Notes: generated from the letters alone by a model not told the origin. DNA of 64,000 bases from Nitriliruptoraceae bacterium (GCA_020832455.1 JAFIEQ010000003.1:1393-65392), one strand, 5' to 3'. Positions 1 through 42,162 are shown, counted from the stretch's first letter. Translations and numbers: made by a program.

Positions 1-2469
1 CGCGACCGTCGACCGACGGTGAGCGTCGCCGGCACGAGCGCAGCGCGTCACGTCCCGCTCGGCGCGTTCGGACCGGTGCTGCGCGCCGATCTGCCCGGCG
101 CCGCGTTCGACCGACTCCAGGCGGCCCGCGCCTGGATCGCCGACGCGACCACGCTGCTGGTCGTGGACGACGCCCATCTGCTCGATCCGCTCAGCGCCGC
201 GCTGGTCCTGCAGTTGATCGCGGCCCGACCGGTGTCGGTCGTCGCGACCGCGCGGAGCGACGTCGCCTGCGATCCGGCGGTCGCTGAACTGTGGGTGGGC
301 GGCCGGACCGAGCGCATCGCGCTGGCACCGCTGGAGCGATCACGCACCAGCGCACTGCTGCGCGCGGTGCTCGGCGGGCCCGTGACCCCGAGCACCGAGC
401 GCGAGATCTGGGATCGGACCCGCGGGAACGCCCTCGCACTGCGCGAGCTGGTGACCACGACCCTGGAGGTCGGGGCGCTGGCCGAGGTCGACGGGGTCTG
501 GCGGCTCGACGCCGACATCGCGCTGCCGCGGGAGACGGCCGAGGTCATCGCCGCCCGGCTCGCCACCCTGGACGGTCCGGAACGGGATGCCTTCGAACTC
601 GTCGCGCTCGGTGACCCGCTGCCCCTGGCCGCGCTCGTCGCCGCGGGATCGGCCACCGCCTGCGAGGCGCTCGAGCGGCGCGGGCTCGTCCACGTCGTCG
701 AGCGTGCGGACGGTCCCTGGGTCCGACCGCACCACCCGTTGCACGGCGAGGCGATCCGGGCTGCCGTGAAACCGCTGCGCCGCGCCCGACACGAACGCAC
801 GCTCGCACGGATCGCACCCCACCTCACCGACCTCGATCCGCTCCGCGCGGCCCGCTGGCAGCTCGAGGCCTCGATCGAGCCCGACCACGACCTGCTTCGC
901 CGCGCCGCACTCGCAGCACGCGGTGCCGACCCTCCGCTGCACCGACGCCTCGCCGAGGCGCTCGTGGCGCGGGCACCCAACGCGTCCAACCTCTGTCTCG
1001 CCGCGCAGGCGGCGGCCTCGACCGGACACGGCGCGGACGCGCTGCGTCTGCTCGAGCAGGCGGAGGCAGCCGCCACGGACGACCGTGACCGCGAGGAGAT
1101 CGCCGCGACGGCGATCGACTGGGCCGGTGCGCTCGACGAGGTCGCCGAGGACGCATCGCAGCTCGCGAGGCGACTCGCGGACGCCATCAGCGATCCGGAC
1201 GCCGCCGCGCGGGTGGCGACGACGTTCGCGACCGCAGCGGCACTGAGCGGACGCCGTGACGAGGTGCTGCGAGCGGTCGAACGGATCCTCGCGGCCGACG
1301 ACGTCACCCCGACGACCGTGCTCGCGGCAGCGACCGAACGATCGGTGTTCGGGCTGTTCTCCGGGCGGACGGATGCGCTCGATGAGGAGTTCGACCGGTT
1401 GGCGGAGCTCGCGCTCCAGGTCGGGGACGTCACGACGACGCCCATGATCGAGGCGGGCCGGAGCACGTGGTACTGCCTGGTCGGTCGGCTCCCCGACGCG
1501 ATCGACCAGGACCGGCGGACCCTCGCGGCGGCCATCGAGTCCGGTGACGTCCGTCGGCGGTGGATGGCATCCATCTGGCTGGCGGTCGCCCTGGAACTCT
1601 CCGGCGCCCTGGACGAGGCGCTCGCGGTCCTGGCCGACCTCCAACCCCTCCTGAGCCTCACGGAGCCGGCGGCACTGCGTCACTTCCACCCCGCACTGAG
1701 CGCGACCGTGCACCTGCAGCGGGGTACGGCCGGGCCGGCACGTCGGCTGCTCGCGTCGCTGCCTGCGACGGCCCGCGATGACGTCCGCGTCCACGCGCTG
1801 GCAGGCCGCGCGGAGGCGTGGTCGGCGGGCCTCGACGGTGACCTCGACCAGGTCGCGCGGCGGGCCGGGGAACTCGGTGAGGAACTGCGGGACGCGGGGT
1901 GGGCGGTGTTCGCCGGGCTCTGCCTCTTCGACGCGGTCCGACTCGGCCGGCCCGGTGCCGTAGCCGGGCCGTTGACCGAGTTGGCTGCGGCCGCTGACCC
2001 CTCGACGGAACTGCTGCACGCGCACGCAGCCCACGCCCGGGCGGCGCACGAAGGCGACGCCCAGGCACTGGATGCCGTGGCCGTTCGCTGGGCACGAGCC
2101 GGCGCGTACCTGGTCGCCGCGGAGGCCGGCGGCGCCGCGGCCACCCGGCACGCGCTCGACGGTCGGCCCGACCTGGCGGCCAGAGCCGCCCTGCGCGCGA
2201 CGGGGTGGCTCCAGCGCTGCGGCGCGGCGGCGACCCCTGGCCTCCTCGGCTGGCGCTCACCGTTGACCCCGCGCGAACGGGAGGTCGCCGGGGCGGCGGC
2301 GAGCGGGCGAACCTCTCCGCAGATCGCTGCGCGGCTCGTCCTGTCCGTGCGGACCGTGGACAACCACCTCGCGAACACCTACCGCAAGCTCGGCATCACC
2401 TCCCGCACCGAACTCGCGGACGTCCTCGGTCCCGGAGCCTGGGACCCGGACAGCGAGGGCCGAGGGTGA
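1..2469 (+). CDS. LuxR-family transcriptional regulator, large ATP-binding (LAL/MalT-like) type; 5' end runs off the window
   Basis: ORF 19..2469 stays open back to base 1. Walker-B-like LLVVDDAHLLD near the N-terminus, a long Ala/Leu-rich helical middle, and a C-terminal LuxR HTH (LTPREREV...SPQIAARLVLSVRTVDNHLANTYRKLGITSRTELA). Confidence 0.85.
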   Translation, partial: RDRRPTVSVAGTSAARHVPLGAFGPVLRADLPGAAFDRLQAARAWIADATTLLVVDDAHLLDPLSAALVLQLIAARPVSVVATARSDVACDPAVAELWVGGRTERIALAPLERSRTSALLRAVLGGPVTPSTEREIWDRTRGNALALRELVTTTLEVGALAEVDGVWRLDADIALPRETAEVIAARLATLDGPERDAFELVALGDPLPLAALVAAGSATACEALERRGLVHVVERADGPWVRPHHPLHGEAIRAAVKPLRRARHERTLARIAPHLTDLDPLRAARWQLEASIEPDHDLLRRAALAARGADPPLHRRLAEALVARAPNASNLCLAAQAAASTGHGADALRLLEQAEAAATDDRDREEIAATAIDWAGALDEVAEDASQLARRLADAISDPDAAARVATTFATAAALSGRRDEVLRAVERILAADDVTPTTVLAAATERSVFGLFSGRTDALDEEFDRLAELALQVGDVTTTPMIEAGRSTWYCLVGRLPDAIDQDRRTLAAAIESGDVRRRWMASIWLAVALELSGALDEALAVLADLQPLLSLTEPAALRHFHPALSATVHLQRGTAGPARRLLASLPATARDDVRVHALAGRAEAWSAGLDGDLDQVARRAGELGEELRDAGWAVFAGLCLFDAVRLGRPGAVAGPLTELAAAADPSTELLHAHAAHARAAHEGDAQALDAVAVRWARAGAYLVAAEAGGAAATRHALDGRPDLAARAALRATGWLQRCGAAATPGLLGWRSPLTPREREVAGAAASGRTSPQIAARLVLSVRTVDNHLANTYRKLGITSRTELADVLGPGAWDPDSEGRG

Positions 2470-2508
2470 GCCGGCCGCAGCCACGTCACCAGCCGGCGCC
2501 GCGTGTGC

Positions 2509-5500
2509 TCAGGGCGTCTCCTCGTCCACCGGCCAGACCCGGATGTCGGTGAGCATCTGGAACTGACCGTGCAGGCCATCGCCCATGTAGCTCGGCGCGT
2601 GCAACACGATGCTGGCCTGCCCTGCCTCCTCGACATCGTCGGCCAGCAGCACCGGCCGTCCCCCGTCGGCGGCGCTGGGCAGCGTGCCGTGGCGCAGGAA
2701 GTTCACGTCTCCCTTGCAGCGGTTGAACCCGTCGAGTGGGGTGAACGGGCCGCCGCGCAGCGACTCCATGCGCATGTGGGCCCGGACCGGGAGATGATCG
2801 CCGACCTCGACGACGGGCAGGATCTCGTCCCCGACCCGCAGGATGGCGCGACCGAGCGGATCGCCGGTGAGGCGGAAACGCTTGCCGCTCTGGTCGACGC
2901 ACGGGGTCGGCCCGTTCCCTCGACCACGACTGATGTGGATCGGTCCGGCGAGCGCCTCGACCTGGATGATGCGCGTCCGATCGGCCTCCACGCCACCCGG
3001 ACGTTCCACCCGCCCGGACGGGCCCTGCGGTGGTCCGGCGTACACCCCGGGGAACAGGGCGGTCTCCGGACGCATGTAGTCGACCCGCACCTCCCAGTCG
3101 ATCCGCCACTGCCGCCCCGGGGTGGTCACCCGGGGGTTCCACACCCCCGGCACGAGGTTGCCGTCCTGCAGCCACCCGACGACGTCCGGATGCTCCGTGC
3201 CGACGAGCCAGGTCAACGCATCGCCGTACACCGCGCGGTTGCCCCGCTCGTCCCGGAGCTCCAGCGCGAGGTGGTAGCCGGTGAGCGCGCACGCGGTGTC
3301 GATCACGACGCGGGGTGCTTGTTCGAGGATGTCGGTGGTCGCGACGTGCGGGATGCGTTCCGCGGGACATCCCGGCGGCGGCGGGGAGGCCGCGTCGTAG
3401 GTCCCGCGTGGCCGGGCGACCAGGGTCGCGGTCACGGGCCGGTCCGCGACGATGTCGACCCCCAGCACGTTGCGATCCTGGCCGTCCACCCGGGTGAGCA
3501 CCTGCGTGCGGGCCCCGTCGAGCACCGGGAAGTCCCGATCCCGCACGTCGACGGGCACCGGGAACACGACCCACCCCGCCGGCGACGAGCGCCCGGTGGA
3601 GACCACGGCGACCTGGATCCGGCCGATCTGCCGACCGCTGTCGACCTCCGAGAGGGGCAGGTCGTAGAGGTCGACACACCGGTCGCAGGCCTGCCCGTGC
3701 CGCGGATGGGCCGGATCGGTCACCAGCCGGACCCGGAAGGTCCGTCGCTGGACGTCGCGGTAGTCCCCACGCACGCTGGTCAGCAGCTCGAGGCGCCCCC
3801 CCTGCAACCCGTCGGTCACCTCGAACCGGCACAGCTCGTGCGGGAGCGGATCGAGCGTCGCGCCCGGGATGCGCGCCATGGTGCATCGCTCGTCGGACCC
3901 GTCCGCCTGGAACAGCACGATCGCGCCCCGCGGCAGCCCGGCCACCCGGTCGGGGTCGACGAACGACCCCTCCGTCGCGACGACCTGCACCGTCGGCCGT
4001 TCCGGCGGCTGCAGGATGTGGGCCTCACGGTCGACGACCCGGCGCGCGCCACCGACGAGCTCCTCCCACCGCAGGCACAGCTCGAAGATCGCCCCGTCGG
4101 ACGGATCGAGTTCCGTGGCGAACCGTTCGATCGCATCGAACGCCGGATCGCTCCCGACGGGTGCGACCACTCCGACCCTGCCCCCGGGCGCGAGCTCCAC
4201 GATGCGGTCCGGATCCGCCTCGAGCGAGCGGGACTCCACGCCCGGGCACTGCGAGGTCAGCGCAGGTTGCGAGGGATCGCGCACCACCACGGTCGCCGCC
4301 ACCTCGACCCCAGGACGGGTCCAGGCGTTGATGCGGACACGCCGGTCCGTGATGGTGTTCACCGTGGTCGCCGGCCGCTCGCCCGCGGGAGGCGCCGGCG
4401 CCAGCACGCGCGCCTCGAGGGGAGACCAGCCCTCCGCGATGGCATTGTGGGCGCGACCGCGGATCTCCAGCAGCTCCCCCGGTGTCGGCGGACGGGCCAC
4501 GGCGACGCAGTGGTCCACGATGCGGTTGCCCCGGGCGCGCTGCTCCGCGATCCGGGTCGGATCGACGCGCTGCGGGAGCACGATGTCGTACCAGGGCGCG
4601 TCCTCGCCCACCGCGGTGACCGTCAAGCCGATCCAATCCGGGTACCCATCGAACGTGAGGCGTAGCGGGAACTGATCGTCGTCCCAGTCGAGAAGCCTCG
4701 CGCAGCGCGGTCCCGGGTCGACGGCGGCCCCGATCAGGCGCAGCGGCGTGTTGAGCGGCAGCACCGTGGCCGAGGTCCCGTCCCCGCAGTCGACCGGCTC
4801 GCCGTCGAGCTCGGCCGCACAGACGTCGAGGAACTCGGGTTCGAACGCCCGCAGGACCATGTCCCGCAGCCTCGGGTCGTCGAACCCGAGCAGGGGCCCC
4901 GGGAGGAGGAACCGCTCGTCGTCGTCGCGCAACGCGTCGTCGTCGACCGCGGGCGGATCATCGCTCGGGACGGCCTCGTCGTCCGCCGGCGGGTCGGTGA
5001 CCTCGTGCAGGTCGAGGACGCGCGGCGGGGGTCCGTCGTCTCCCTCGACCGGCGCGTCGCCATCTGCCGGACCGCCAGCGTCATCGGCACGGCCGGCGGC
5101 GTCAGGGGCGACGGGATCGTCATCGGTGGTCGGGGCGGCCCCGGCCGTGCCCTGCGCCGGTGCCGGAGCGGGCCTCGCCGCCGCGAGTGCGGCCTCGACG
5201 ATCCCGTCGGGATCCTCGGGGGTGTGACCCCAGGCGCGCAGGTCGACGGAGTCGGGCCGGGGCGCCCCCCCCCCCGGGCCCCGCCCCGCCGCCGGGGGGG
5301 GGCCCCCCGCGCGGCCGGGCGGGCGGGGGGGCGGCGGCCCCCCCGACCCCCGGGGGCAGCGGCCCGGAGGCCGGGAGCTCGATCAGCGGCTCGTCGTCGA
5401 CGACGGTGCCCTCCTCGCCGACCACCGTGAGGGCCTCCTCGAGGTCGAACTCGGCGGGCACCACGCCCGTCGCCGCCAGCGCCTCCTCCAGCGGGTGCTC

Positions 5501-5689
5501 GGGGTGCAGATCGAAGGAGCCGACGGGCTCCGCGACCGGTACGACCCAGGGCTCGGGCGGTGGGTCGGTCGCGATCGCCCGGCTGACGGTGAACGCCAGC
5601 AGGCCGAGGGCGACCGCACCGACCACGGTCAACGCCAGGGGGACCACCGTGCCGAAGCGGCCGGTCGCCAGGGGACCTCGAGCGGTCAT
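2509..5689 (-). pseudogene. Large single-pass membrane-anchored Cys-containing protein of unknown function (paralog 1); frame broken by the GC-only tract at 5253..5345
   Basis: ORF 5120..5689 supplies an N-terminal TM anchor (VVPLALTVVGAVALGLLAF) and WVVPVAEPVGSFDLHPEHPLEEA, matching the N-terminus of the downstream paralog. ORF 2509..4932 supplies the rest, and its frame is open upstream to the tract (..PDSVDLRAWGHTPEDPDG..). The two parts differ by one frame. GGAG lies 6 nt before the ATG at 5689. Confidence 0.7.
5253..5345. repeat. GC-only homopolymer-rich tract 1 (93 nt with no A or T)
   Basis: Direct reading: 5253..5345 contains only G and C, with runs up to C11 and G9, and sits inside the paralog-1 gene. 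Confidence 0.9.
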
Positions 5690-5710
5690 GGGGAGCTCCT
5701 CACAGGTCGA

Positions 5711-8700
5711 TCAGGACCGGCGGTCACGCGGGTCCGGGGTGATGCGCAGGACCCCGTCGACGAGGTAGAGGTAGGGGATGTCCCAGTCCTCGAAGCCGCG
5801 CGGTGTCGACGGCGTCCGTGGCGGTCGGTCCGCCACCCAGAGGGTCTCGCTGCGCGCGACGAGCGGGACCGTGGGGCGTGCGGCGAGCTCCTGGGCGGCG
5901 TAGCGGCGGGTCGGTGCGTTGAAGTCGTCGCCGAACGCGCCGACGACCCGCATCGGCTTGGTCGCCACCTGACGGTTGCCATGGCTGTGGAAGCCGCAAC
6001 CCCCGACCATCCACATCTCGAGGTGGCCGGTGCCGCCGATCACGACCTCGTCGGGAACCTCGACCTCGAAGGTCCGCGCGGGGTGCTCCGCGCGGGGGTC
6101 GATGCACCGACGTCCGTCGCCGGCATCCTCGCCTGCGCGCAGCACGGCCGGTCCGAGCCGGACCTCCAACGAGCCGAGGAACGAGTGCGCCGCGCGACGG
6201 CGTGGCGTCTCCATCCAGCTCCGAGAGATCCGGGCGGGATCACCCTGCCAGGTGAGCTCCGGGGCGACCTCGAGCCGGATCTGGGTCTCGACCTCCCACC
6301 GGTGTCCGTCGGTGGTGTGCACGGGCCGCCATCCCGACGCGCGGTAGTCATCACCCGCGGCCGGCAGATCCTCGTGGACCCGCGTCGCGAGCAGCCACGT
6401 GACCAGGTCGCCCTGGACCGTGCGCGCCCCGTCCTCGTCGATCAGTTCGACAGCCAGGCGGTAGCGCGTCAGGGCACACGCATCCTCGATGCGCAGCTGC
6501 CCACCGACGCGGAACTGCTCCGAGCCGACCAGGTGGGGCAGCCGCTCCGCCGGGCAGCCGAGGGGGACGGGGGCGTCCGCGTCGCGCTGGGTGATGGGGC
6601 GCGCCGCGAGGCGGACCTGCACCGGCCGGTCCGCCCGGTAGTCGAAGACGATCCCGCGCCGGGCGTCGTCCAGGTCGGCCGTGATGGTGCTGCGGACCGT
6701 GTCCAACACGGGACGATCGGGCGTGACGTCCTCGTGGGACAGCGGGAACGTCAGCCAGCTCCCGTGGGGGTCACCCCCCACGGCCACACTGATCCGGACC
6801 GCCCCGGCGGGGACCAGCCCGCGCGCATGCGATCGGGACGAGGACCAGCCGTAGACGGTGTAGGTGTCTCCACAGGCCAGGCAGTCGCCGTGGTGTCGCG
6901 AGCTCAGGTGGGACGGCAGTCGGATCAGGTGGTCCGCCGCGTGGACCTCGCGACCGCCGGAGCCCTCGGACTCCATCGGCAGACTCAGGATCACCTGCTG
7001 CCGCTCGTCGGTCAGCTCGAACCGACAGAGCCGGACGTGCTCCGCGAGCTCGCCACGCAGCACGTCGGTCACGCTACGGGTGCACGTCTCGGCGAGCGGG
7101 ACGTCCTGGATCAGGTGGTTCGTGCCCAGTGTCGTGCCGTTGCCGGCCGCCCGCAGCTGCCGGACGTCGGCCCAGGCCCGGCCGGTGACGCGCCGACCGT
7201 CCGCGCCGACCTCCCGGAAGAAGGACTCCGTGCTCGGGTGCAGGAGGACCTCGACGACGGGCCGCTCCGGTGGGGCGACGAGGTGCGACTCACGTTCGAT
7301 CACGACCCGGTCCCCGTCGAGTACGCGGGTCCAGGTGAGGCAGAGCTCGAAGACCGGCGGTTGCGCGTCGAGGTCGGACGTGCGGAAGGCCAGGTCGTAG
7401 ATCAGCTCGGTCGTGAACGACGCGTCGAACGCGCGCCCAGGAGCGGACGCCAACCGCTGGACGGGTCGGATGCGCACGGGTGCACCCGGCCGGGCGTAGG
7501 AGCCGCTGGCCTGCCAGGCGGCCCCTTCGAGCTGCTGGGGATCGCACTGCGTCCCCAGTCCGCGCACGGCGGGATCACGGACCACGAGGTGCGCGGCGAC
7601 GAGCCGCTCACGGCCGGACGCGACCCGCGCGAGCAGCCGACGGTCGCCGACCGGCTCCAGCACCGTCGGTGGCCGACCCTCCACCTGCGTCAGCGGCAGG
7701 GGGAGCGTGAACCGCACCCGCTCGTAGCCCCAGTCCTGTCCGCGGGCCTGGACGTGCAGCTCGTAGCTGTTCGCGCCCGCCTGCCGGGGCAAGCGTTGGC
7801 AGTGGTGGTAGACGCGCTGTCCCCAGCCGAGGAACTGCTGGGCCGCGCGCAGGGGGACCTGGGTCCGCTCCTCGGTCACCGAGCGGTCGCGATCTCCCTG
7901 CCAGCGCAGGACGATCTCCCGCGGCGGCTGGTTGAACGAGACCCGGACCGGGACACCGGGGCCCTCCTCGAGATCCGCACACCGCGGGCCGTGGTCGATG
8001 GCCGCGGTGACGACCTCGAGCGGTGGGAACAGCGCAGCGATGGTGCCGCCCATGCCCTCCCCGCAATCGATCGGCTCGTCGTCGATCGTCCCGGCGCAGA
8101 CGTCGAGGAAGTCGGGATCCGACGCGGGGCCGAGCAGCAGCCCGGCGCCGTCGTCCGCGATCCGCTCGTCGGGCACGGTACGCATCGACTCCGCGAGCAG
8201 CGCATCGAACACCGCCGGGTCGCTGCCCTCGCCGCCCCCCTCGTCAGCGAGCACGTCGTCGTCGGGCGGCTCGGGGTCGGACCCGGAGCCGCGCGCCACG
8301 ATGCCGACCCCGGCGGGGACCTCGGCCCACCGGCTCGAGCCGGTTCCAGCCGTGTCCGGGTCCGGCGTCCCGGGACGGTCGTAGCCCTGCGCGGAGAGGT
8401 CCACCCGGGGGGTGTCCACGCCGGGCACGACCAGCGAGGTCACCGTGTCCGGCGATGCCTCGAGCCGAGGATCGACCAGCAGCGCACCGACCGCTTCCAG
8501 GAGCTCGGAGGTGGGTCCGTCCTGATCCGGGGCCGCCAGCTCGGAGACCTCACCCCCGGATGCAGCAGCGGCCCGCCCGAAGGCCTCGTCAAGGGGCAGC
8601 TCCGGGTCGAGTGGGAACGAACGGATCGGTTCGGCGACCGCCGCGATCCAGTCCTGACGGGGATCGGCCGACGCGCCGGCGACGGCCCGCGTGAGCCCGA

Positions 8701-8779
8701 AGGACGCGACACCGACGAGCACGATGCCAACGAGCACCACCGCGATCGTCCGCGGACGGGAGCGGGACAGGGCACTCAT
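5711..8779 (-). CDS. Large single-pass membrane-anchored Cys-containing protein of unknown function (paralog 2), about 1,022 aa
   Basis: Continuous ORF. The ATG at 8779 overlaps the upstream stop (ATGA). N-terminal signal anchor RTIAVVLVGIVLVGVASFGL, an acidic/Pro-rich linker, then about 800 aa sharing collinear blocks with 2509..5689 (FLDVCAG..DCGEG, FELCLTW..PPERP, LCRFELTD, GCPAERLPH..ACALTRYRLAVEL). Confidence 0.75.
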   Translation of the reverse strand: MSALSRSRPRTIAVVLVGIVLVGVASFGLTRAVAGASADPRQDWIAAVAEPIRSFPLDPELPLDEAFGRAAAASGGEVSELAAPDQDGPTSELLEAVGALLVDPRLEASPDTVTSLVVPGVDTPRVDLSAQGYDRPGTPDPDTAGTGSSRWAEVPAGVGIVARGSGSDPEPPDDDVLADEGGGEGSDPAVFDALLAESMRTVPDERIADDGAGLLLGPASDPDFLDVCAGTIDDEPIDCGEGMGGTIAALFPPLEVVTAAIDHGPRCADLEEGPGVPVRVSFNQPPREIVLRWQGDRDRSVTEERTQVPLRAAQQFLGWGQRVYHHCQRLPRQAGANSYELHVQARGQDWGYERVRFTLPLPLTQVEGRPPTVLEPVGDRRLLARVASGRERLVAAHLVVRDPAVRGLGTQCDPQQLEGAAWQASGSYARPGAPVRIRPVQRLASAPGRAFDASFTTELIYDLAFRTSDLDAQPPVFELCLTWTRVLDGDRVVIERESHLVAPPERPVVEVLLHPSTESFFREVGADGRRVTGRAWADVRQLRAAGNGTTLGTNHLIQDVPLAETCTRSVTDVLRGELAEHVRLCRFELTDERQQVILSLPMESEGSGGREVHAADHLIRLPSHLSSRHHGDCLACGDTYTVYGWSSSRSHARGLVPAGAVRISVAVGGDPHGSWLTFPLSHEDVTPDRPVLDTVRSTITADLDDARRGIVFDYRADRPVQVRLAARPITQRDADAPVPLGCPAERLPHLVGSEQFRVGGQLRIEDACALTRYRLAVELIDEDGARTVQGDLVTWLLATRVHEDLPAAGDDYRASGWRPVHTTDGHRWEVETQIRLEVAPELTWQGDPARISRSWMETPRRRAAHSFLGSLEVRLGPAVLRAGEDAGDGRRCIDPRAEHPARTFEVEVPDEVVIGGTGHLEMWMVGGCGFHSHGNRQVATKPMRVVGAFGDDFNAPTRRYAAQELAARPTVPLVARSETLWVADRPPRTPSTPRGFEDWDIPYLYLVDGVLRITPDPRDRRS

Positions 8780-9990
8780 GCGAAGTCGCACCAGAAGAGC
8801 TGGACGCGGTTCCCACTGCTCGACGCCAGGGTCCGGGTAGGGCCGTCGACCGGCACGGCGCGGGCCTCCCACCGGATCGTCGCGTTCCCGAACACCTCGA
8901 TCCCGTTGGCGCTCGGCTGGTAGGGGCCGAGCTCACGGCGGTAGCGGTTGGCGGGGCCGCTCACGAGCGGGCTCATCGTCTGCCAGGAGGTCCAGCTGCC
9001 ATCGCCGACCCGGGAGCGCAGCTGCACCGAGGCCAGCCCGCTCGGGTGGCTCGCCTCCACGGTGATCGCGGAGGTCAGGGGCAGGTTGGTGTCACAGGCG
9101 CCGATGTTCGCGGCGACGGCCTCCCTGATCTGGGCGTTGGAGCGGCTCACGAACGTCAGCGTCGGTTCGACGACAGGCGGCGGCTCGGGCGCCGGCTCCG
9201 GTGCGGGAGACGGTGGGGGCGGGCTCGGGGACGGCGAAGGAGACGGGCTCGGCGACGGTGCGGGACTCGGCGACGGAGACGGGCTCGGCGACGGTGAGGG
9301 ACTCGGCGACGGCGAGGGATCCGGGCTCGGCGACGGCGAGGGACTCGGCGACGGCGAGGGATCCGGGCTCGGCGACGGCGAGGGATCCGTCGAGGGCGCC
9401 GGCGCCGCGGTGACGGGCGCGTCGTCGCTCGGGGTCGGGTCCTGGTCCGGCGCGGAGTCCTCCTCCAGCTCGTCCTCGACCGGCTCAGGGTCGTCCGGTT
9501 CCTCGGCGGCGCCCGGCTCCTCGGTGCTCGGAGGCTCGTCCGATCCGTCCGTGTCGGGCAGTGCCACCACGACCTCGGTGACCACGCAGTCGGGCTCGAC
9601 GACAGCCAGGGACGCGAGCTCCTCGTCCGGGACGACCATCGCCGTGGGCATCCACACGCGGTCCGACCCGTCGGTCGGCGCGCGCAGTTCGACCCACGAC
9701 CCGTCCTCGGACCGACCCGTCAGGAAGATCCGATCGCCGCGGGAGAGCTCGCCGGCGACCAGGTCGTCGGGACAGGCGTGGTAGGGCACCCCGCCGGTGG
9801 ACGGCGGGACCACGTCCACGTCGGCAGCCGACATCGCGATGCCGGCACCGACGCCGACCGCGGTCGCGGCCGCACCGACGGCGAGTCCGATCAGGATCCG
9901 GTTCATGCGTCGCAACCTCCGTCCGCGGGTCAGCACCCGCGCGTAGATCTCGGTCCGTGGCGTCGGAGCGGGCCAGCGCAGATCACTCAT
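8776..9990 (-). CDS. Membrane-anchored protein with an SH3-like segment, a long (Ser-Pro)n linker and a C-terminal Cys-bounded domain; cotranscribed with the ECF sigma factor
   Basis: The ATG at 9990 overlaps the sigma-factor stop (ATGA). After 30 cytoplasmic residues comes the TM helix ILIGLAVGAAATAVGVGAGIAM, then GDRIFLTGRSEDGSWVELRAP (SH3b-like), about 70 residues of SP/DP repeats, and a C-terminal domain ending QLFWCDFA. Confidence 0.7.
   Translation of the reverse strand: MSDLRWPAPTPRTEIYARVLTRGRRLRRMNRILIGLAVGAAATAVGVGAGIAMSAADVDVVPPSTGGVPYHACPDDLVAGELSRGDRIFLTGRSEDGSWVELRAPTDGSDRVWMPTAMVVPDEELASLAVVEPDCVVTEVVVALPDTDGSDEPPSTEEPGAAEEPDDPEPVEDELEEDSAPDQDPTPSDDAPVTAAPAPSTDPSPSPSPDPSPSPSPSPSPSPDPSPSPSPSPSPSPSPSPSPAPSPSPSPSPSPSPPPPSPAPEPAPEPPPVVEPTLTFVSRSNAQIREAVAANIGACDTNLPLTSAITVEASHPSGLASVQLRSRVGDGSWTSWQTMSPLVSGPANRYRRELGPYQPSANGIEVFGNATIRWEARAVPVDGPTRTLASSSGNRVQLFWCDFA
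9181..9402 (-). repeat. In-frame tandem nucleotide repeats encoding the (Ser-Pro)n linker
   Basis: Repeated ctcggcgacgg(c/t)ga(g/c)gg units. Includes a 42-nt period duplication (9311..9352 versus 9353..9394) whose first 33 nt are identical. Confidence 0.85.
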
Positions 9991-10517
9991 CGCCCCACCA
10001 CCTCCAGCCGCCGATCGACGTCCTCGCCGAGCCGTGCCCGCAACCGCTGGACGCCCCGGTGCAGGTGGGTCTTGACCGACCCGGCGGAGACCTGCATCGC
10101 CTCGGCGACCTGCGCCTCCGACAGCCCGGCGAGGTAGCGCAGCGACACCGCCTCCCGCTGTCGACGCGGCAAGCGACGCAGCGCTGCAACCAGGGTCAGG
10201 CGCAGGACCACCACCTCGTCGGTGTGGTCGTCCACGGTGACCGTGTCCGGCTCCGTCGGTCGATCGCTCACCCGGCTGCCGCGTCGAGCGACGTCGATCG
10301 CCAGGTTGGTCGCGACCCGCACGACCCACCCCTCACGCCAGGGTCGGTCCCCGATCCGTGACCAGTGCGCGAAGGCGCGTGCCATGGCCTCCGCCGCGAC
10401 ATCCTCCGCGCTGGTCGGATCACCCAGGATCCGCCGCGCGACCAGGAAGGCACGCCGGAACAGCGGGTCGAAGGCGTCCTCGAACCCGTCGGGAGTCGGT
10501 GGCGGGGTCTGCATCAT
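9987..10517 (-). CDS. ECF-family RNA polymerase sigma factor (sigma-70 regions 2 and 4)
   Basis: FDPLFRRAFLVARRILGDPTSAEDVAAEAMARAFAHW (region 2) and LPRRQREAVSLRYLAGLSEAQVAEAMQVSAGSVKTHLHRGVQRLR (region 4 HTH). Start placed at the MMQTPPP ATG at 10517. Confidence 0.85.
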   Translation of the reverse strand: MMQTPPPTPDGFEDAFDPLFRRAFLVARRILGDPTSAEDVAAEAMARAFAHWSRIGDRPWREGWVVRVATNLAIDVARRGSRVSDRPTEPDTVTVDDHTDEVVVLRLTLVAALRRLPRRQREAVSLRYLAGLSEAQVAEAMQVSAGSVKTHLHRGVQRLRARLGEDVDRRLEVVGR

Positions 10518-10809
10518 GACCGGGAAACGCCCCGGAGCACGTTCCGGTTGACATGGATCACGGCGGCGGTCGCGATGGTCTCCACATCCCGCCCCGTCAG
10601 CCGGTGCGTCCGGCACGGCCCCGAGCACCTGCGGGGATCCCGGCCACCGATCGCATCCCCACGCTCCCCTCGAGCGATCCACGATGCGGCGGGCGGTGGT
10701 CGCCGGCGCACGCTCCGTCGCAGCACTGCACCACGCACGTCCGGAGGCGGCATGAGTAGCCGCCTACTCGGTTCGGTCCCCGCCGTTACTCAACGGACCC
10801 GCGGCGGGC

Positions 10810-11289
10810 TCAGCGCGTCAGCAGCTTGGCGTAGTACAGGGCACGCTCGTCGGTGTCGAGGTCGCCGGCCACGAACCCCTGCCGGGTGTAGAAGCGCTGC
10901 GCATCGACGTCGCCCTCGTCGACGTTGATCTCGACCAGTTCGACCGCTCGTGCACCAGCCGTCGTCAGGACGAGGTCCAGGACATCCGCGCCGATCCTTC
11001 GCCCCCGCAGCGCGGGTCGAACGTAGAGCTCGTCGAGCAACGCGACCGGCCCGTCGAACCACACGTTCGGTCGCAGCGTGACGAGCGCCACCCCCACCGC
11101 GGGACGACCGGCGAGGACCGCGAACGTGGACGCCCCGGCGAGCAGCGACCGCAACCGCGTCGCGAGCACGGCCACGCCGGGCGTCTCCGTGTCGAACTCG
11201 CGGTTGAAGTCGTCCAACAGCTCAGCGACCTCGACGGCGTCCTGCACCGTCGCGACCCGGGGTGGCCACCCACCCGACGTGCCCACCAT
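10810..11289 (-). CDS. GNAT-family N-acetyltransferase
   Basis: LDELYVRPALRGRRIGADVLDLV..ARAVELVEINVDEGDVDAQRFYTRQGF is a typical acetyl-CoA-binding GNAT core. Start chosen at MVGTSGG (11289). Confidence 0.75.
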   Translation of the reverse strand: MVGTSGGWPPRVATVQDAVEVAELLDDFNREFDTETPGVAVLATRLRSLLAGASTFAVLAGRPAVGVALVTLRPNVWFDGPVALLDELYVRPALRGRRIGADVLDLVLTTAGARAVELVEINVDEGDVDAQRFYTRQGFVAGDLDTDERALYYAKLLTR

Positions 11290-11438
11290 CCGACCTCCCG
11301 TACCCGGTCCGATCCGTGCCGGGGACCGCGCCCGCGACCTGCACCCTCGCGCTCGATCCGCGCTCCCGCAGGAGCATCCCACGCGGTGCCGCGCGGCGAC
11401 ACCGTCCGCCGGGGGGCGGACGGCCGTATCGTGCGCCG

Positions 11439-13475
11439 ATGCCGCGACCGGGCGGCGCCCTCGGAGGTGATCCCGTGGCGTTCGATCTCCCGACCCTGCC
11501 GCTGAGCGAGCCCGGCATCGTCTTCGCCGCACTGCTGGCCGCCGTGCTGTTGGCCCCGATGCTTGCCCGGCGTCTGCGGCTGCCCGAGGTCGTGGTGGTC
11601 CTGGTCGTCGGCTTCGCGATCGGGCCGACCGGGATCGGGCTGCTCGAACGCGTCGGGGTGGTGCAGAGCCTCGGCTACGCGGGCCTGCTGTACCTGATGT
11701 TCGTGGCCGGGCTCGAGCTCGACCTCGACGACTTCATCGAACACCGCACGGACTCCCTCGCCTTCGGCACGATGACGTTCGTCGTCCCCATGGTGCTGGG
11801 CACGGCCACCTCGCTGGCGCTGGGCTACGGCCCGCTCGCCTCGCTGCTGCTCGCCTCCTGCTGGGCCTCGCACACGCTGGTCACCTACCCGATCTTCCAG
11901 CGGGTGGGCACGGTCGGCAACCGTGCGGTCGCGACCTCCGTCGGCGCCACCATCATCACCGACACCGCCGCGCTGCTCGTGCTCGCGGTCGTCGCCCGGG
12001 CCCACCAGGGGGAGCTCTCCGCGGTCTTCTGGGCCACGCTGCTGCCGTCGCTGGCGATCGTCACGTCCGGGGTCGTGGCGGGCCTACCTCGACTCGCGCG
12101 GTGGTTCTTCTCCGGCTGGGGGCAGGACCGCTCGCTGCGGTTCCTGTTCGTGCTGGTCGCCCTGTTCACGACCGCGTCGCTGTTCGACGCGATCGGCATC
12201 GAAGCGATCGTCGGCGCCTTCCTCGCCGGGCTCGTCCTCAACCGCAGCGTCCCCAACAGCGGGGCGTTGATGGGACGTCTCACGTTCTTCGGCGAGACGT
12301 TCTTCATCCCGCTGTTCCTGGTCGCCACCGGCATGCTCATCGACCTGCAGGTGCTGCTGGAGCCACGCACCCTGCTCATCGGCGGCGCCTTCACGGCGGT
12401 GGCGCTCGTGGCGAAGCTGCTGGCTGCGCTCGGCGCGGGCCGACTGCTGGGCTACAACCGCCCGGAGATCGGGGCGATGTTCTCCCTGTCCGCCGCCCAG
12501 GCCGCCGCCACCCTGGCGGCCATCGTCGTCGGGCTCGAGATCGGCCTGCTGGACGAGAGCACCGTCAACGCCGTGATGATGGTCATCCTCATCACGTGTC
12601 TGGTGGCCCCCGCCGCGGCCAGCCGCTACGCGGCCGCACTGCCCCGTCCCCCGCGGACCCGGGATCTCGGCGACGTCGTGGTCGTGCCGGTGGCCAACCC
12701 CCGGTCGGTGCCGCACCTGATCGACATCGCCTCCCGCTTCGCGCGGGCGGATGGGGGGATCGTCGTCCCCGTCACCATCGCCGCTGCCGGCACCGGCGCC
12801 GAGGAGCTCCAGGCCGTCCGCGACCTCGACCTGGAGGTCATCGAGGTGGCGCACTCCGCCGGCGCGGAAGCCCGGACGGTGTTCCGCATCGACGCGACCG
12901 CGGCGACCGGCATCGCCCACACGGTGGTCGAACAGGAGGCGACCCTGCTCGTGCTGGGGTGGACCGGGACCACGGAGAGCAGAGGCGCCACGTTCGGCGC
13001 GGTCATCGACGACGTGCTGTCCCACACCAACCTGCCCACGCTGCTGTCCTACGACGGGGGCGAGCCGATCGGGCGGATCCTGATCATCGTCGACCGGTCC
13101 GTGACGACCCCGGCCGGTGGTCCCGCCGTGGAGCTGGCCCTCGAGGCCGCCAAGCTGCTGGCGCGGCCCCGCAACCTGCCCATCGAGGTCGTGGGGGACC
13201 GTGAGGATCAGCGGTCCACGGCGCGCATCGAACAGCAGCTCGGTCGTGAGGTACAGCACGACACCCGACGACGGGCCGCCACGGTGACCGACCACGCGCG
13301 CCCCAACGATCTGATCATCGTGCCGACGATCGGTGACGAGCCGAACCTGCGCTCGGTCGCGGCGCCGATCGCCGCGGCGGCCCCGCCCGGCGCGTCGCTG
13401 CTCATCGCGCTCGACACCTCGCCGATCACCCTCGATCACCCGTCCGACGCAGCCACCGGGGACCACGCCGACTGA
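11439..13475 (+). CDS. Cation:proton antiporter (CPA2/Kef-like) with a C-terminal tandem universal-stress-protein-like region
   Basis: About 400 aa of polytopic membrane domain (LPEVVVVLVVGFAIGPTGIGLL..), followed by two USP-like alpha/beta segments (VVVPVANPRSVPHLIDIA.., ILIIVDRSVTTPAG..). The start could instead be the GTG at 11475. Confidence 0.85.
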   Translation: MPRPGGALGGDPVAFDLPTLPLSEPGIVFAALLAAVLLAPMLARRLRLPEVVVVLVVGFAIGPTGIGLLERVGVVQSLGYAGLLYLMFVAGLELDLDDFIEHRTDSLAFGTMTFVVPMVLGTATSLALGYGPLASLLLASCWASHTLVTYPIFQRVGTVGNRAVATSVGATIITDTAALLVLAVVARAHQGELSAVFWATLLPSLAIVTSGVVAGLPRLARWFFSGWGQDRSLRFLFVLVALFTTASLFDAIGIEAIVGAFLAGLVLNRSVPNSGALMGRLTFFGETFFIPLFLVATGMLIDLQVLLEPRTLLIGGAFTAVALVAKLLAALGAGRLLGYNRPEIGAMFSLSAAQAAATLAAIVVGLEIGLLDESTVNAVMMVILITCLVAPAAASRYAAALPRPPRTRDLGDVVVVPVANPRSVPHLIDIASRFARADGGIVVPVTIAAAGTGAEELQAVRDLDLEVIEVAHSAGAEARTVFRIDATAATGIAHTVVEQEATLLVLGWTGTTESRGATFGAVIDDVLSHTNLPTLLSYDGGEPIGRILIIVDRSVTTPAGGPAVELALEAAKLLARPRNLPIEVVGDREDQRSTARIEQQLGREVQHDTRRRAATVTDHARPNDLIIVPTIGDEPNLRSVAAPIAAAAPPGASLLIALDTSPITLDHPSDAATGDHAD

Positions 13476-13573
13476 CGGACCGGCCCAACGGTCAGCGGGC
13501 AGCGTCGAGGTGCCGCCGTAGCCTGCCCGCTCCGCCACCACCGGACCCGCGCTGCGGGTGGAGCTCCCCCACC

Positions 13574-39818: not shown

Positions 39819-39899
39819 CGCGGGGGGGGGGCGCAGGCCGGCCCCCCCCCCCCCCCGGGGGGGGGGGGGGGGGCGCCCCCCCCGCCCCCCCCCCCCCGC
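39819..39899. repeat. GC-only homopolymer tract 3 (81 nt with a single A)
   Basis: G10 (39822..39831), C15 (39842..39856) directly abutting G17 (39857..39873), C8 (39876..39883) and C13 (39885..39897). It lies between two convergent stop codons. Confidence 0.9.
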
Positions 39900-42074: not shown

Positions 42075-42162
42075 CGCCGGCGGGCCCCCGCGGCGCCCCC
42101 CCCCCCCCCCCCCCCGCGCTCCGGCAGGATCAGCCCCCACCCCCCCCCCCCCCCGCCCCCGG
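42075..42162. repeat. GC-rich homopolymer tract 4 (C20 at 42096..42115 and C15 at 42140..42154)
   Basis: 42075..42119 and 42140..42162 contain no A or T. The octamer ggatcagc occurs at 42127..42134 and again at 42161..42168, where it covers the aceE stop codon. Confidence 0.9.

What the first reader, a model, noticed from the sequence alone, without database searches (positions are those of the whole stretch)
2509..10517. Translationally coupled four-gene operon: ECF sigma factor, a Ser-Pro-linker membrane protein and two giant membrane-anchored paralogs with no recognisable domain
On the minus strand, the sigma stop overlaps the next start (ATGA at 9987..9990). That gene's stop overlaps the start of paralog 2 (ATGA at 8776..8779). 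Paralog 1 starts 21 nt after the paralog-2 stop, behind a GGAG. All three downstream products have a short cytoplasmic N-terminus and one TM helix, with the bulk outside the membrane. The two large proteins carry about 200 aa of acidic/Pro-rich linker followed by about 800 aa with regularly spaced Cys residues. I can match no catalytic or adhesin motif in them. ECF sigma factors are normally followed by a cognate anti-sigma factor. Here the position-2 protein has only about 30 cytoplasmic residues and no HxxxCxxC zinc motif. Together this suggests a sigma-controlled extracytoplasmic module of unknown function, and it is the most plausible undescribed system in the window.
Basis: partly seen in the sequence, partly recalled or inferred. 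Interest (0 to 1): 0.7.

Follow-up and report, generated by a model that had tools for sequence, protein, structure and literature searches.

The report
Sigma-factor operon encoding giant envelope proteins
An alternative sigma factor with a conserved promoter of its own type is co-encoded with a small membrane protein (its probable inhibitor and sensor) and very large, all-beta surface proteins of an undescribed family; the module recurs in two classes of Actinomycetota, but one of the two large genes is broken in this assembly.

Summary
The layout is real. On the minus strand lie an ECF sigma gene (9987-10517), a 404-aa single-pass membrane protein (8776-9990) and a 1022-aa protein (5711-8779), joined by two ATGA overlaps. 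A paralog starts 21 nt later behind GGAG.

Its frame changes inside a 93-nt G/C-only stretch (5253-5345) that orthologs lack, and an independent assembly stops there.

Gene order is conserved: sigma, gene 2 and large protein(s) occur on metagenome contigs of close relatives and in an Iamiaceae MAG (Acidimicrobiia).

All five loci that include the sigma upstream region carry GTCAACC-N16-CGTT-N11-ATG, an ECF-type promoter that probably makes the operon autoregulated.

Gene 2's roughly 25-residue cytoplasmic peptide (WPxPxPRxE...RVxxRGR) is its best-conserved part. That supports a minimal anti-sigma role, which is inferred, not tested.

The large proteins form a tiny family: 9 representatives among 1.84 billion, with no Pfam, NCBIfam or PDB match. 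The AlphaFold model (pLDDT 64) is a string of beta-sandwich domains, and 14 Cys columns are conserved. Their function remains unknown; the most likely role is surface binding or scaffolding, as output and/or co-sensor.

This is a moderately interesting new variant of a known kind.

The parts
10526..10552 (-). ECF-type promoter GTCAACC-N16-CGTT. It lies 8 nt upstream of ATG 10517 and 11 nt upstream of the second ATG at 10514 (the conserved 'MQ' start). The transcript is probably leaderless or nearly so.
   Evidence: The same motif, spacing and distance to the start codon occur in L001, L002, L003 and the Iamiaceae locus L011. It is the only conserved block in the upstream alignment. It is the only site in the 64-kb window, even allowing 1 mismatch.
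9987..10517 (-). ECF sigma factor, 176 aa (NCBI MCC5946946.1).
   Evidence: Pfam Sigma70_r2 (1.1e-9), Sigma70_r4_2 (1.5e-16) and Sigma70_ECF hits. The best NCBIfam hit is TIGR02983 at 125 bits, below its cut-off of 141.55. It is 60% identical to the Iamiaceae ortholog. The closest solved structures are SigW, SigE and SigL.
9901..9990 (-). Gene 2, residues 1-30: the conserved cytoplasmic peptide MS[DE]xxWP[AS]P[TS]PRxE..[AT]RV..RGR. This is the candidate sigma-binding (anti-sigma) element.
   Evidence: By my count on alignment A7, 15 of the first 24 residues are identical between Nitriliruptoraceae and Iamiaceae, whereas the rest of the protein is at most 33% identical or cannot be aligned. AlphaFold models a helix at residues 11-49, at low confidence.
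9829..9900 (-). Gene 2 transmembrane segment (residues 31-54).
   Evidence: Kyte-Doolittle hydropathy maximum of 1.96.
9586..9774 (-). Gene 2 SH3-like beta domain, bracketed by Cys73 and Cys135.
   Evidence: Conserved in window, P0002, P0003, L007 and L011, with GDR..[LI]TG...W.E[LI]R.P.D...R[VL]W. PDB matches to myosin SH3 domains are weak (E about 0.1). Beta strands are modelled at residues 77-115, at low pLDDT.
9175..9570 (-). Gene 2 acidic segment followed by an (SP)n low-complexity linker.
   Evidence: Direct reading of the translation. This linker caused most of the spurious database hits.
8776..9174 (-). Gene 2 C-terminal Ig-like beta-sandwich domain plus the stop codon.
   Evidence: pLDDT is 70-84 for residues about 307-396, with seven strands. 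Foldseek gives only generic Ig-like and CBM56 matches, none at E <= 0.001. The domain is conserved in L004, L008 and L009.
5711..8779 (-). Paralog 2, 1022 aa (MCC5946944.1). From the N-terminus: TM/signal-anchor (about residues 11-30), conserved juxtamembrane motif (about 40-67), acidic disordered stalk (about 68-215), and an ectodomain of about 800 aa.
   Evidence: The AlphaFold model of residues 215-1022 is all-beta, with pLDDT 63.7. Foldseek matches macroglobulin-domain and FN3 arrays at E about 2e-7 but TM-score about 0.1. There are 14 conserved Cys columns and a CxxC at 633-636.
5696..5699 (-). GGAG ribosome-binding site for paralog 1.
5346..5689 (-). Paralog 1, N-terminal part: TM/signal-anchor, juxtamembrane motif and the start of the stalk. 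It is in a different frame from the rest of the gene.
   Evidence: It matches the N-termini of P0123 and P0126.
5253..5345 (-). G/C-only stretch of 93 nt with homopolymer runs. It holds about 79 extra nt compared with the orthologs and causes the frame change. It is either an assembly artefact or a real insertion.
   Evidence: The independent Logan contig L012 ends at window position 5344. The ortholog P0123 lacks the stretch.
2509..5252 (-). Paralog 1, remainder: stalk plus an ectodomain of about 800 aa. This frame is stop-free from 5382, and its first start codon is TTG at 4932.
   Evidence: It is 62% identical to the intact 1063-aa ortholog P0123.

Best explanation
This is a conserved extracytoplasmic-function (ECF) sigma signalling module of Actinomycetota.

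1. The sigma factor probably transcribes its own operon from a promoter of the ECF AAC/CGT type, GTCAACC-N16-CGTT, placed so close to the start codon that the mRNA is leaderless or nearly so. The motif, its position and its conservation are shown. Recognition by this particular sigma is inferred.

2. The genes are tightly packed, with two 4-nt overlaps and one 21-nt gap with an SD sequence, and are probably co-transcribed and translationally coupled. The layout and its conservation are shown. Co-transcription is inferred.

3. The +1 protein is a single-pass membrane protein with its N-terminus inside the cell. Its conserved cytoplasmic peptide of about 25 residues, continuous with the TM helix, most likely holds the sigma factor at the membrane as a minimal anti-sigma element. 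Outside the membrane it has an SH3-like domain close to the membrane. A long Pro-rich linker then places an Ig-like domain further out, and these parts would act as the sensor. This step is inferred.

4. The large paralogs are exported and disulfide-rich. They are anchored by, or cleaved after, an N-terminal hydrophobic segment. They are carried on a disordered stalk of about 150-200 aa, long enough to cross the wall. Each ends in an array of beta-sandwich domains with no catalytic signature. They are most likely surface binding or scaffold proteins. They are the operon's main output and possibly also the partner that the +1 protein monitors. This step is inferred.

In this assembly the second paralog is interrupted by a G/C-only stretch of doubtful authenticity.
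For: [quoted passage not shown]
- An identical promoter layout occurs in five loci from three lineages (73% and 58% GC). It is the only conserved upstream block, and each locus has exactly one site.
- The overlaps and the SD sequence were read directly.
- Gene order is conserved: sigma-gene2-large(-large) in L001-L003. Gene2-large-large is seen in L004 and L009, and gene2-large in L008. Sigma-gene2-large is seen in Iamiaceae L011, and gene2-large in L007.
- Between the two classes, the sigma is 60% identical and the gene-2 N-terminal peptide about 63% (15 of 24, my count). The large proteins are only about 20% identical.
- Casas-Pastor 2021 uses position +1 together with TM helices as criteria for putative anti-sigma factors. 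It notes that most such proteins match no Pfam domain of experimentally studied anti-sigma factors.
- Two-helix class II anti-sigma domains show that short anti-sigma elements exist.
- The large proteins have an all-beta model, 14 conserved Cys columns, a single N-terminal hydrophobic segment and no LPxTG or CxEQ motif.
- In each lineage, both gene 2 and the large proteins carry long linkers of a composition typical of that lineage: acidic/SP in Nitriliruptoraceae and T/P-rich in Iamiaceae.
Against: - No binding test between the sigma factor and gene 2 was possible.
- The cytoplasmic peptide is shorter than the class I fold (three-helix bundle plus a fourth helix) and the minimal RsbN region (residues 1-91). 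It has no sequence match to any anti-sigma factor in Pfam, NCBIfam or the PDB.
- The AlphaFold model of gene 2 is poor (pLDDT 49.6, and about 30 at the N-terminus).
- The large-protein model is only moderate (pLDDT 63.7, pTM 0.43). Its Foldseek hits have TM-scores of about 0.1, so they show 'strings of sandwiches' and nothing more specific.
- The sigma upstream region is available for only three lineages.
- No expression data exist.
- No relatives were found in the first scan of 185,579 GTDB species genomes or in the JGI metagenome scan. The sample of contexts is therefore small.
Confidence: 0.55

Rival explanations
1. Gene 2 is not an anti-sigma factor. It is an envelope partner, assembly factor or tether for the large proteins. 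The sigma factor would be controlled only at the level of its own transcription or by an unlinked regulator.
For: - The gene2-large pair is the most often observed unit: L004, L007, L008, L009 and L010 all show it.
- There is no anti-sigma domain hit, and only about 30 cytoplasmic residues.
- Some ECF groups have no anti-sigma factor at all, for example ECF54 and ECF58 in PMC7826278.
Against: - Those contigs simply start inside gene 2, so the absence of a sigma gene is not shown. Wherever the upstream DNA exists, the sigma gene is there and overlaps gene 2.
- The cytoplasmic peptide is the best-conserved part of gene 2 across the two classes. A mere membrane anchor would not be expected to show this.
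Confidence: 0.25
2. The large proteins are not membrane-anchored. Their N-terminal hydrophobic segment is a cleaved Sec signal peptide, and the mature proteins are released to form a wall-associated, S-layer-like or matrix layer.
For: - Most members have an AxA-like motif 3-6 residues after the hydrophobic segment: RAVA|G, RAIA|T, RAVA|AP, RALA|AP.
- There is no C-terminal anchor or LPxTG motif.
Against: - The hydrophobic segment is about 20 residues long, which is TM-like.
- It is followed by a conserved Arg and then by a conserved juxtamembrane motif (PW.VP.AEP...LDPDLPL). That motif would make sense as a membrane-proximal element.
- No signal-peptide predictor was available.
Confidence: 0.3
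3. The large proteins are bacterial alpha-2-macroglobulin-like protease traps.
For: The top Foldseek hits are TEP1, alpha-2-macroglobulin and complement C3/C4, with E about 2e-7 and probability up to 0.98.
Against: - TM-scores are about 0.1 and rmsd exceeds 30 A.
- The model is all-beta, with no helical thioester domain.
- No CxEQ motif occurs in any member.
- No Pfam A2M or MG family hit occurs in any of the 9 members, even at E <= 5.
Confidence: 0.04
4. The interruption of paralog 1 is biological: a pseudogene, or an on/off switch through slippage in the G/C homopolymer tracts. It would not be an assembly artefact.
For: - The G11/C9 runs are the kind of tract that can slip. On the minus strand these are G11 and C9; one search reports them on the plus strand as C11 and G9.
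- The stretch is present in the deposited contig.
- Both parts of the gene keep coding-like GC3 of about 0.9, so any inactivation would be recent.
Against: - Four such G/C-only stretches, with runs of up to 20, occur in this one 64-kb window. At least one is intergenic (39836-39899), and two others lie at junctions between neighbouring coding stretches.
- The intact ortholog P0123 has nothing comparable at this point, and the partial L001 ortholog reads straight through it.
- An independent assembly of the reads breaks exactly at the edge of the stretch.
- Poly-G runs are a well-known artefact of two-colour Illumina chemistry (this last point rests on my own knowledge).
Confidence: 0.25

Closest known systems
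ECF sigma / single-pass anti-sigma pairs (general scheme: RseA-sigmaE, RsiW-sigmaW, RskA-sigmaK; class I anti-sigma domains)
   Same: - An ECF sigma factor is followed at +1 by a translationally coupled single-pass membrane protein with its N-terminus inside and its bulk outside.
- The promoter is of the AAC/CGT type and is probably autoregulated.
   Different: - The cytoplasmic part is about 30 residues, whereas a class I domain is a three-helix bundle plus a fourth helix.
- There is no zinc motif and no Pfam, NCBIfam or PDB match.
Class II anti-sigma domains (CnrY of CnrH; NepR)
   Same: These are very short anti-sigma elements, built from only two helices that clamp the sigma factor (PMC6101532). 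They show that a short cytoplasmic element could be enough.
   Different: There is no detectable sequence similarity. AlphaFold models one long helix running into the TM segment rather than a two-helix clamp, but at pLDDT of about 30, so this is undecided.
BldN-RsbN of Streptomyces (class III anti-sigma; regulon = chaplin and rodlin surface proteins)
   Same: An actinobacterial ECF sigma factor is controlled by a lineage-restricted single-pass anti-sigma factor with a large extracytoplasmic part. Its output is cell-surface structural proteins (PMC6101532).
   Different: - RsbN uses residues 1-91 (three helices) to bind the sigma factor.
- The chaplin and rodlin genes are not in the sigma operon.
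- There is no sequence relationship.
SigI-RsgI of cellulolytic Clostridia, and FecI-FecR-FecA cell-surface signalling
   Same: - RsgI-like architecture (from my own knowledge): a short N-terminal cytoplasmic anti-sigma segment, one TM helix, a Pro/Thr-rich linker and a C-terminal beta-sandwich sensor domain.
- Cell-surface-signalling logic: sigma factor plus membrane transducer plus a large surface protein encoded together.
   Different: These systems involve different sigma families or phyla, and there is no RsgI_N or FecR domain here. The surface partner is a TM- or signal-anchored beta-sandwich array, not a TonB-dependent barrel. A signalling role for the large proteins is speculation.
Macroglobulin-domain / FN3 tandem arrays (alpha-2-macroglobulin, TEP1, C3; fibronectin, cytokine receptors)
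   Same: The predicted ectodomain is a string of sandwich domains whose 3Di profile matches these arrays.
   Different: There is no thioester motif, no helical TED and no Pfam MG or fn3 hit. TM-scores are about 0.1.

Membership tests
ECF (group 4) sigma-70 factors | [quoted passage not shown] | tested here: met
   Sigma70_r2 at 1.1e-9, Sigma70_r4_2 at 1.5e-16 and TIGR02937 sigma70-ECF at 70 bits against a cut-off of 42.9. The protein is 176 aa.
ECF (group 4) sigma-70 factors | Cognate promoter with 'AAC' in the -35 element and 'CGT' in the -10 element, often upstream of its own gene | tested here: met
   GTCAACC-N16-CGTT lies upstream of the sigma gene and is conserved exactly in 5 loci. Whether this sigma factor uses it is not testable here.
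TIGR02983 'SigE family' sigma subfamily (NCBIfam) | Score at or above the curated cut-off of 141.55 bits | tested here: not met
   It is the best hit, but at 125.3 bits. ECF-Hub group assignment was not possible with these tools.
Class I anti-sigma domain (ASD / zinc-binding ZAS) | Cytoplasmic three-helix bundle plus a fourth helix; HxxxCxxC in the zinc-binding members; Pfam zf-HC2, RskA and related families | tested here: not met
   There are only about 30 cytoplasmic residues and no cytoplasmic Cys or His motif. No Pfam or NCBIfam hit at E <= 1, and no PDB anti-sigma hit at E <= 10.
Class II anti-sigma domain (CnrY/NepR) | A short two-helix clamp that binds sigma-2 and sigma-4 | tested here: inconclusive
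   The length is compatible. AlphaFold gives a single helix at residues 11-49 at pLDDT of about 30. No complex prediction was available.
Putative anti-sigma factor, operational criteria of Casas-Pastor 2021 | Typically encoded at +1 of the ECF gene; presence of transmembrane helices; conserved cytoplasmic region | tested here: met
   Gene 2 overlaps the sigma gene by 4 nt, has one TM segment, and its N-terminal peptide is conserved across two classes. The criteria are quoted.
Any anti-sigma factor | Physical binding to, and inhibition of, the cognate sigma factor | not testable with these tools
   This needs two-hybrid, co-purification or multimer structure prediction.
Bacterial alpha-2-macroglobulins | MG domains plus a bait region plus a helical thioester domain (CxEQ in class 1) | tested here: not met
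   The model is all-beta. No CxEQ motif occurs in 9 members. No Pfam A2M or MG hit. Foldseek similarity is limited to sandwich arrays, with TM-scores of about 0.1.
Sortase-anchored surface adhesins (MSCRAMM-like) | N-terminal signal peptide plus a C-terminal LPxTG sorting signal | tested here: not met
   There is no C-terminal LPxTG. The only LPxTG match is internal, in P0127 at residue 244.
Bacterial SH3 (SH3b) domains, for the gene 2 ectodomain | Match to the SH3_3 or SH3_4 profiles, or a confident SH3 beta-barrel model | tested here: inconclusive
   No Pfam hit. PDB phmmer matches myosin SH3 domains at E = 0.1-0.3 over residues 81-125. Five strands are modelled at low pLDDT.
Known anti-phage defence systems (ECF-regulated islands such as DdvS/DdvA) | A PADLOC model hit | tested here: not met
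   No hits for gene 2 or for three large proteins.

The most novel reading that the evidence does not exclude
The module would be a monoderm counterpart of cell-surface signalling. A minimal peptide of about 25 residues (WPxPxPRxE..RV..RGR), fused directly to a TM helix, would be a new, fourth structural type of anti-sigma element. It would release its ECF sigma factor when the distal Ig-like domain of the same protein senses the state of the giant beta-sandwich proteins displayed beyond the wall: their presence, their integrity or ligand binding. Those proteins belong to a previously undescribed family with 14 conserved Cys columns and a CxxC motif in 8 of 9 members.
Probability: 0.15. Interest if true: 0.7.

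Novelty: new variant of a known kind. Interest (0 to 1): 0.42.

Why it matters
ECF sigma factors are among the major signal-transduction mechanisms of bacteria, and for many groups the regulator and the output remain uncharacterised. This locus offers three things:

- A compact three-part module (sigma factor, minimal membrane partner, giant surface protein) conserved across two actinobacterial classes.
- A precisely defined promoter.
- A conserved cytoplasmic peptide of about 25 residues, small enough for straightforward binding and mutagenesis tests.

If the peptide is the anti-sigma element, it extends the known structural range of anti-sigma factors. The large proteins define a rare, unannotated family of envelope proteins, so far found in uncultured Nitriliruptoraceae-like and Iamiaceae bacteria.

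The practical yield is modest. The organisms are uncultured, the family is tiny, and the function of the large proteins remains a guess.

Tried and rejected
- **Pfam and NCBIfam** on all products gave hits only for the sigma factor. Pfam on all 9 family members at E <= 5 gave nothing meaningful. PADLOC gave nothing, and Rfam on 2000-11600 gave nothing.
- **Word-indexed protein searches.**
  - The large protein found only itself, both as a single sequence and as a profile. The third search was effectively wasted, probably because low-complexity words swamp the candidate list.
  - Gene 2 gave 127 hits. Nearly all came from the (SP)n linker; only P0002 and P0003 are real homologs.
- **PDB sequence searches.** The family profile gave 0 hits at E <= 1. 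Gene 2 gave only low-complexity hits and weak SH3 hits. The gene 2 N-terminus matched no anti-sigma factor.
- **Collection scans.** The GTDB and JGI metagenome scans with the family alignment found no confirmed relatives. The wider alignment had no stretch conserved enough to build patterns. The second GTDB scan, with P0129 alone, found the Iamiaceae MAG.
- **Alpha-2-macroglobulin reading** of the Foldseek hits: rejected, because there is no TED, no CxEQ and TM-scores of about 0.1.
- **ZAS-like HxxxCxxC** seen in paralog 1 (HGQACDRC): rejected. It is extracytoplasmic, and the His is not conserved (P0123 has F at that position).
- **Tat signal** reading of the gene 2 N-terminus (RGRRLRR): rejected, because the Iamiaceae ortholog has no twin arginine (KRGRTI).
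- **Homology between the gene 2 domains and the large family:** none by hhalign.
- **Internal promoters and terminators:** no sigma-70-type promoter or intrinsic terminator was found in 2300-11000. The relaxed motif TCAACC-N15-18-CGT gave 4 matches against 1.4 expected, including one inside paralog 2, which I judge to be chance.
- **Not run:** the third fold search (viral library), because the model is too weak for that to add anything.

Full report
**Source.** The window is 73% G+C. The 1022-aa product of 5711-8779 (minus strand) is identical to NCBI MCC5946944.1, 'MAG: hypothetical protein JJT89_00695 [Nitriliruptoraceae bacterium]'. The sigma product is identical to MCC5946946.1. Nitriliruptoraceae belong to the class Nitriliruptoria of Actinomycetota.

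**Check of the observation.**
- The junctions are as described:
  - ATGA at 9990..9987.
  - ATGA at 8779..8776.
  - TGA at 5713..5711, then 21 nt containing GGAG (5699..5696), then ATG at 5689.
Orthologs start at the same residues.
- Hydropathy finds one N-terminal hydrophobic segment in each downstream product. The linkers are 21-25% acidic and 11-15% Pro.
- The two large proteins are true paralogs: 33% identity over 642 aa, E = 9e-65. Their TM and juxtamembrane regions are 43% identical.

- 2509..5689 is 3181 nt, so it cannot be one ORF. The N-terminal 115 codons or so are in one frame and the remainder in another.
- The switch falls in a 93-nt stretch made only of G and C (5253-5345), with runs of 11 and 9.
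- The intact 1063-aa ortholog P0123 (62% identical) reads GPLPPG-LSRPDEP-VDLRAYGH at this point. The window reads GPLPPG, then about 100 nt, then VDLRAWGH. That is about 79 extra bases.
- Three more such stretches, with runs of up to 20, occur elsewhere in the window.
- An independent Logan assembly of SRR13422629 carries the identical paralog 2 and ends at window position 5344, exactly at the edge of the stretch.
- I therefore regard the disruption as more likely an assembly problem than biology. This cannot be settled without the reads.

**The sigma factor and its promoter.**
[quoted passage not shown] Its best NCBIfam match is the actinobacterial TIGR02983 'SigE family' model, below the cut-off. 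The closest solved relatives are SigW, SigE and SigL.
- Upstream lies GTCAACC-N16-CGTT, 8 nt before ATG 10517 and 11 nt before the second ATG.
- The same heptamer, spacer, tetramer and distance to the 'M-Q/D' start occur in L001-L003, metagenome contigs of a relative whose gene 2 is 61% identical. They also occur in L011, an Iamiaceae MAG of 58% GC.
- In an alignment of the three upstream regions this is the only conserved block.
- Each locus has exactly one site. The 64-kb window has no other site, even allowing one mismatch.
- The AAC/CGT pattern is the hallmark of ECF promoters (established knowledge). The short distance to the start codon implies a leaderless or nearly leaderless mRNA, which is an inference.
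- No sigma-70-type promoter, intrinsic terminator or Rfam element lies within the cluster.

**Conservation of the module.** The observed gene orders are:

| Locus | Gene order |
|---|---|
| L001 | sigma (176 aa), gene 2 (387 aa), large (1069 aa), second large (cut by the contig end). Two 4-nt overlaps and an 11-nt gap. |
| L004-L006 | gene 2, P0123, P0128 |
| L009 | gene 2, P0127, a further large paralog |
| L008 | gene 2, P0125 |
| L007 and L011 (Iamiaceae lineage) | a single large protein (P0129 type, 886-888 aa) follows gene 2, followed by ABC-transporter genes (two ATPase/permease pairs called in L007) |

- In L011 the ECF sigma gene precedes gene 2 and overlaps it by 8 nt.
- Iamiaceae belong to Acidimicrobiia. 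The three-gene core therefore spans two classes.
- Divergence is very uneven: sigma 60% identity, the gene-2 SH3-like region 33%, and the large proteins about 20%.

**Gene 2.**
- It has no family hit. Most database hits came from its (SP)n linker.
- Its parts, from the N-terminus:
  - A cytoplasmic peptide, MS[DE]xxWP[AS]P[TS]PRxE..[AT]RV..RGR. By my count on alignment A7, 15 of its first 24 residues are identical between the two classes.
  - One TM segment.
  - A Cys-bracketed SH3-like segment.
  - A long low-complexity linker.
  - A C-terminal seven-stranded sandwich, modelled at pLDDT 70-84, which matches only generic Ig-like folds and CBM56.
- The cytoplasmic peptide is too short for a class I or class III anti-sigma domain, as summarised in PMC6101532. 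It matches no solved anti-sigma factor.
- It does fit the operational criteria used for putative anti-sigma factors: encoded at +1, and with a TM helix. That paper notes that in most cases such proteins match no Pfam domain of experimentally studied anti-sigma factors (PMC7826278).
- The strong conservation of this peptide alongside a strongly conserved sigma factor is my main argument for a minimal anti-sigma role. This is inference, not demonstration.

**The large proteins.**
- An exhaustive HMMER search of 1.84 billion representatives with a two-paralog profile found only 9 proteins, including the two query paralogs themselves.
- None of the nine has a Pfam hit. The family profile hits nothing in the PDB.
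- All are about 890-1080 aa and share one plan:
  - A short basic N-terminus.
  - A hydrophobic segment of about 20 residues.
  - A conserved juxtamembrane motif.
  - A disordered stalk of about 150-200 aa.
  - About 800 aa with 14 conserved Cys columns, 10 of them invariant, including a CxxC in 8 of 9 members.
- AlphaFold2 with the 9-sequence alignment gives an all-beta model: pLDDT 63.7 overall, with several domains at 75-90.
- Foldseek puts TEP1, alpha-2-macroglobulin, C3 and FN3 arrays on top, at E about 2e-7. TM-scores are about 0.1 and rmsd exceeds 30 A. This means 'a string of sandwich domains' and no more.
- There is no helical thioester domain, no CxEQ motif and no LPxTG motif. There is also no defence-system hit, and no relationship to the gene 2 domains.
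- The even number of conserved Cys and the export signal argue for an oxidised extracytoplasmic protein.
- The stalk, up to about 60-70 nm if fully extended (my estimate at 0.35 nm per residue), could carry the array through and beyond the wall.

**Mechanism proposed.** The sigma factor drives its own operon from the conserved promoter, giving positive feedback. The +1 protein sequesters the sigma factor through its N-terminal peptide and senses the envelope through its SH3-like and Ig-like domains. The large proteins are the co-expressed surface output and possibly the structure being monitored. In both lineages gene 2 and the large proteins carry linkers of matching style, which is compatible with their distal domains meeting at the same level outside the membrane. 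That is a weak argument.

**Shown versus inferred.**
- Shown: the gene layout, the paralogy, the conservation of gene order, the conserved promoter motif, the conserved peptide, the export-type N-termini and the all-beta prediction.
- Inferred: co-transcription, promoter use by this sigma factor, anti-sigma function, anchoring as opposed to cleavage, and any role of the large proteins.

**Novelty.** An ECF sigma factor with an unclassifiable +1 membrane protein is a familiar situation. Three things are new here:
- The deep conservation of a specific three-part module.
- The very small conserved cytoplasmic element.
- An unannotated, very rare family of giant sandwich-array proteins.

I file this as a new variant of a known kind, of moderate interest (0.42). 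[quoted passage not shown]

**Limits.**
- Only three lineages show the sigma-proximal part.
- Both structural models are weak to moderate.
- No relatives were found in the first scan of GTDB species representatives or in the JGI metagenome scan using the motif patterns.
- No signal-peptide predictor, multimer prediction, read data or ECF-group classifier was available.

Noticed in passing
window 5253-5345, 30945-31014, 39836-39899, 42075-42154: Four stretches consist only of G and C and contain long homopolymer runs (up to C20 and G17). The first one breaks paralog 1. The stretch at 39836-39899 is intergenic. Those at 30945-31014 and 42075-42154 lie at junctions between neighbouring minus-strand coding stretches, so further genes may be split. 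They look like assembly or poly-G artefacts, but could be real G/C tracts.
   Followed up: partly
window 5711-8779, paralog 2 residues about 620-640 and 773-795 (and the same columns of the family alignment A2): Two conserved motifs occur in the large-protein family. One is DP.HPR.G..C.RC.D.Y, with a CxxC in 8 of 9 members. The other is Y[RH][LF]A[LVI]EL.DE[DE]GNRAVYGD, an acidic D-x-D-G-N loop. They could be metal- or Ca-binding sites or a redox-active site. Neither was tested.
   Followed up: no
L011 12737-14601 and L007 3569-7177: In the Iamiaceae-type loci the single large gene is followed by ABC-transporter genes: two ABC_tran ATPases and a weak ABC2_membrane permease are called in L007, and one ATPase-like and one membrane ORF were read in L011. 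This link is absent in the Nitriliruptoraceae-type loci, where a second large paralog follows instead.
   Followed up: partly
window 19-2469 (+): An 816-aa regulator with a C-terminal LuxR/GerE HTH domain converges on the end of paralog 1, leaving only about 40 nt between the two stop codons. Its size and layout resemble the large ATP-binding LuxR-family regulators. No link to the operon was found in relatives.
   Followed up: no
window 10810-16297: Upstream of the sigma promoter lie three genes: a GNAT acetyltransferase (minus strand), a Na+/H+ exchanger fused to a universal-stress-protein domain, and a P-type cation ATPase (plus strand). This fits a haloalkaliphilic lifestyle. They are not conserved next to the module in relatives; L002 and L003 have small membrane proteins there instead.
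   Followed up: partly
L004 (gene2-P0123-P0128), L009 (gene2-P0127-second large), L001 (gene2-P0124-P0126): At least three paralog types of the large protein exist, and different lineages combine different pairs in tandem. Always having two in the Nitriliruptoraceae-like loci suggests a hetero-oligomer.
   Followed up: partly
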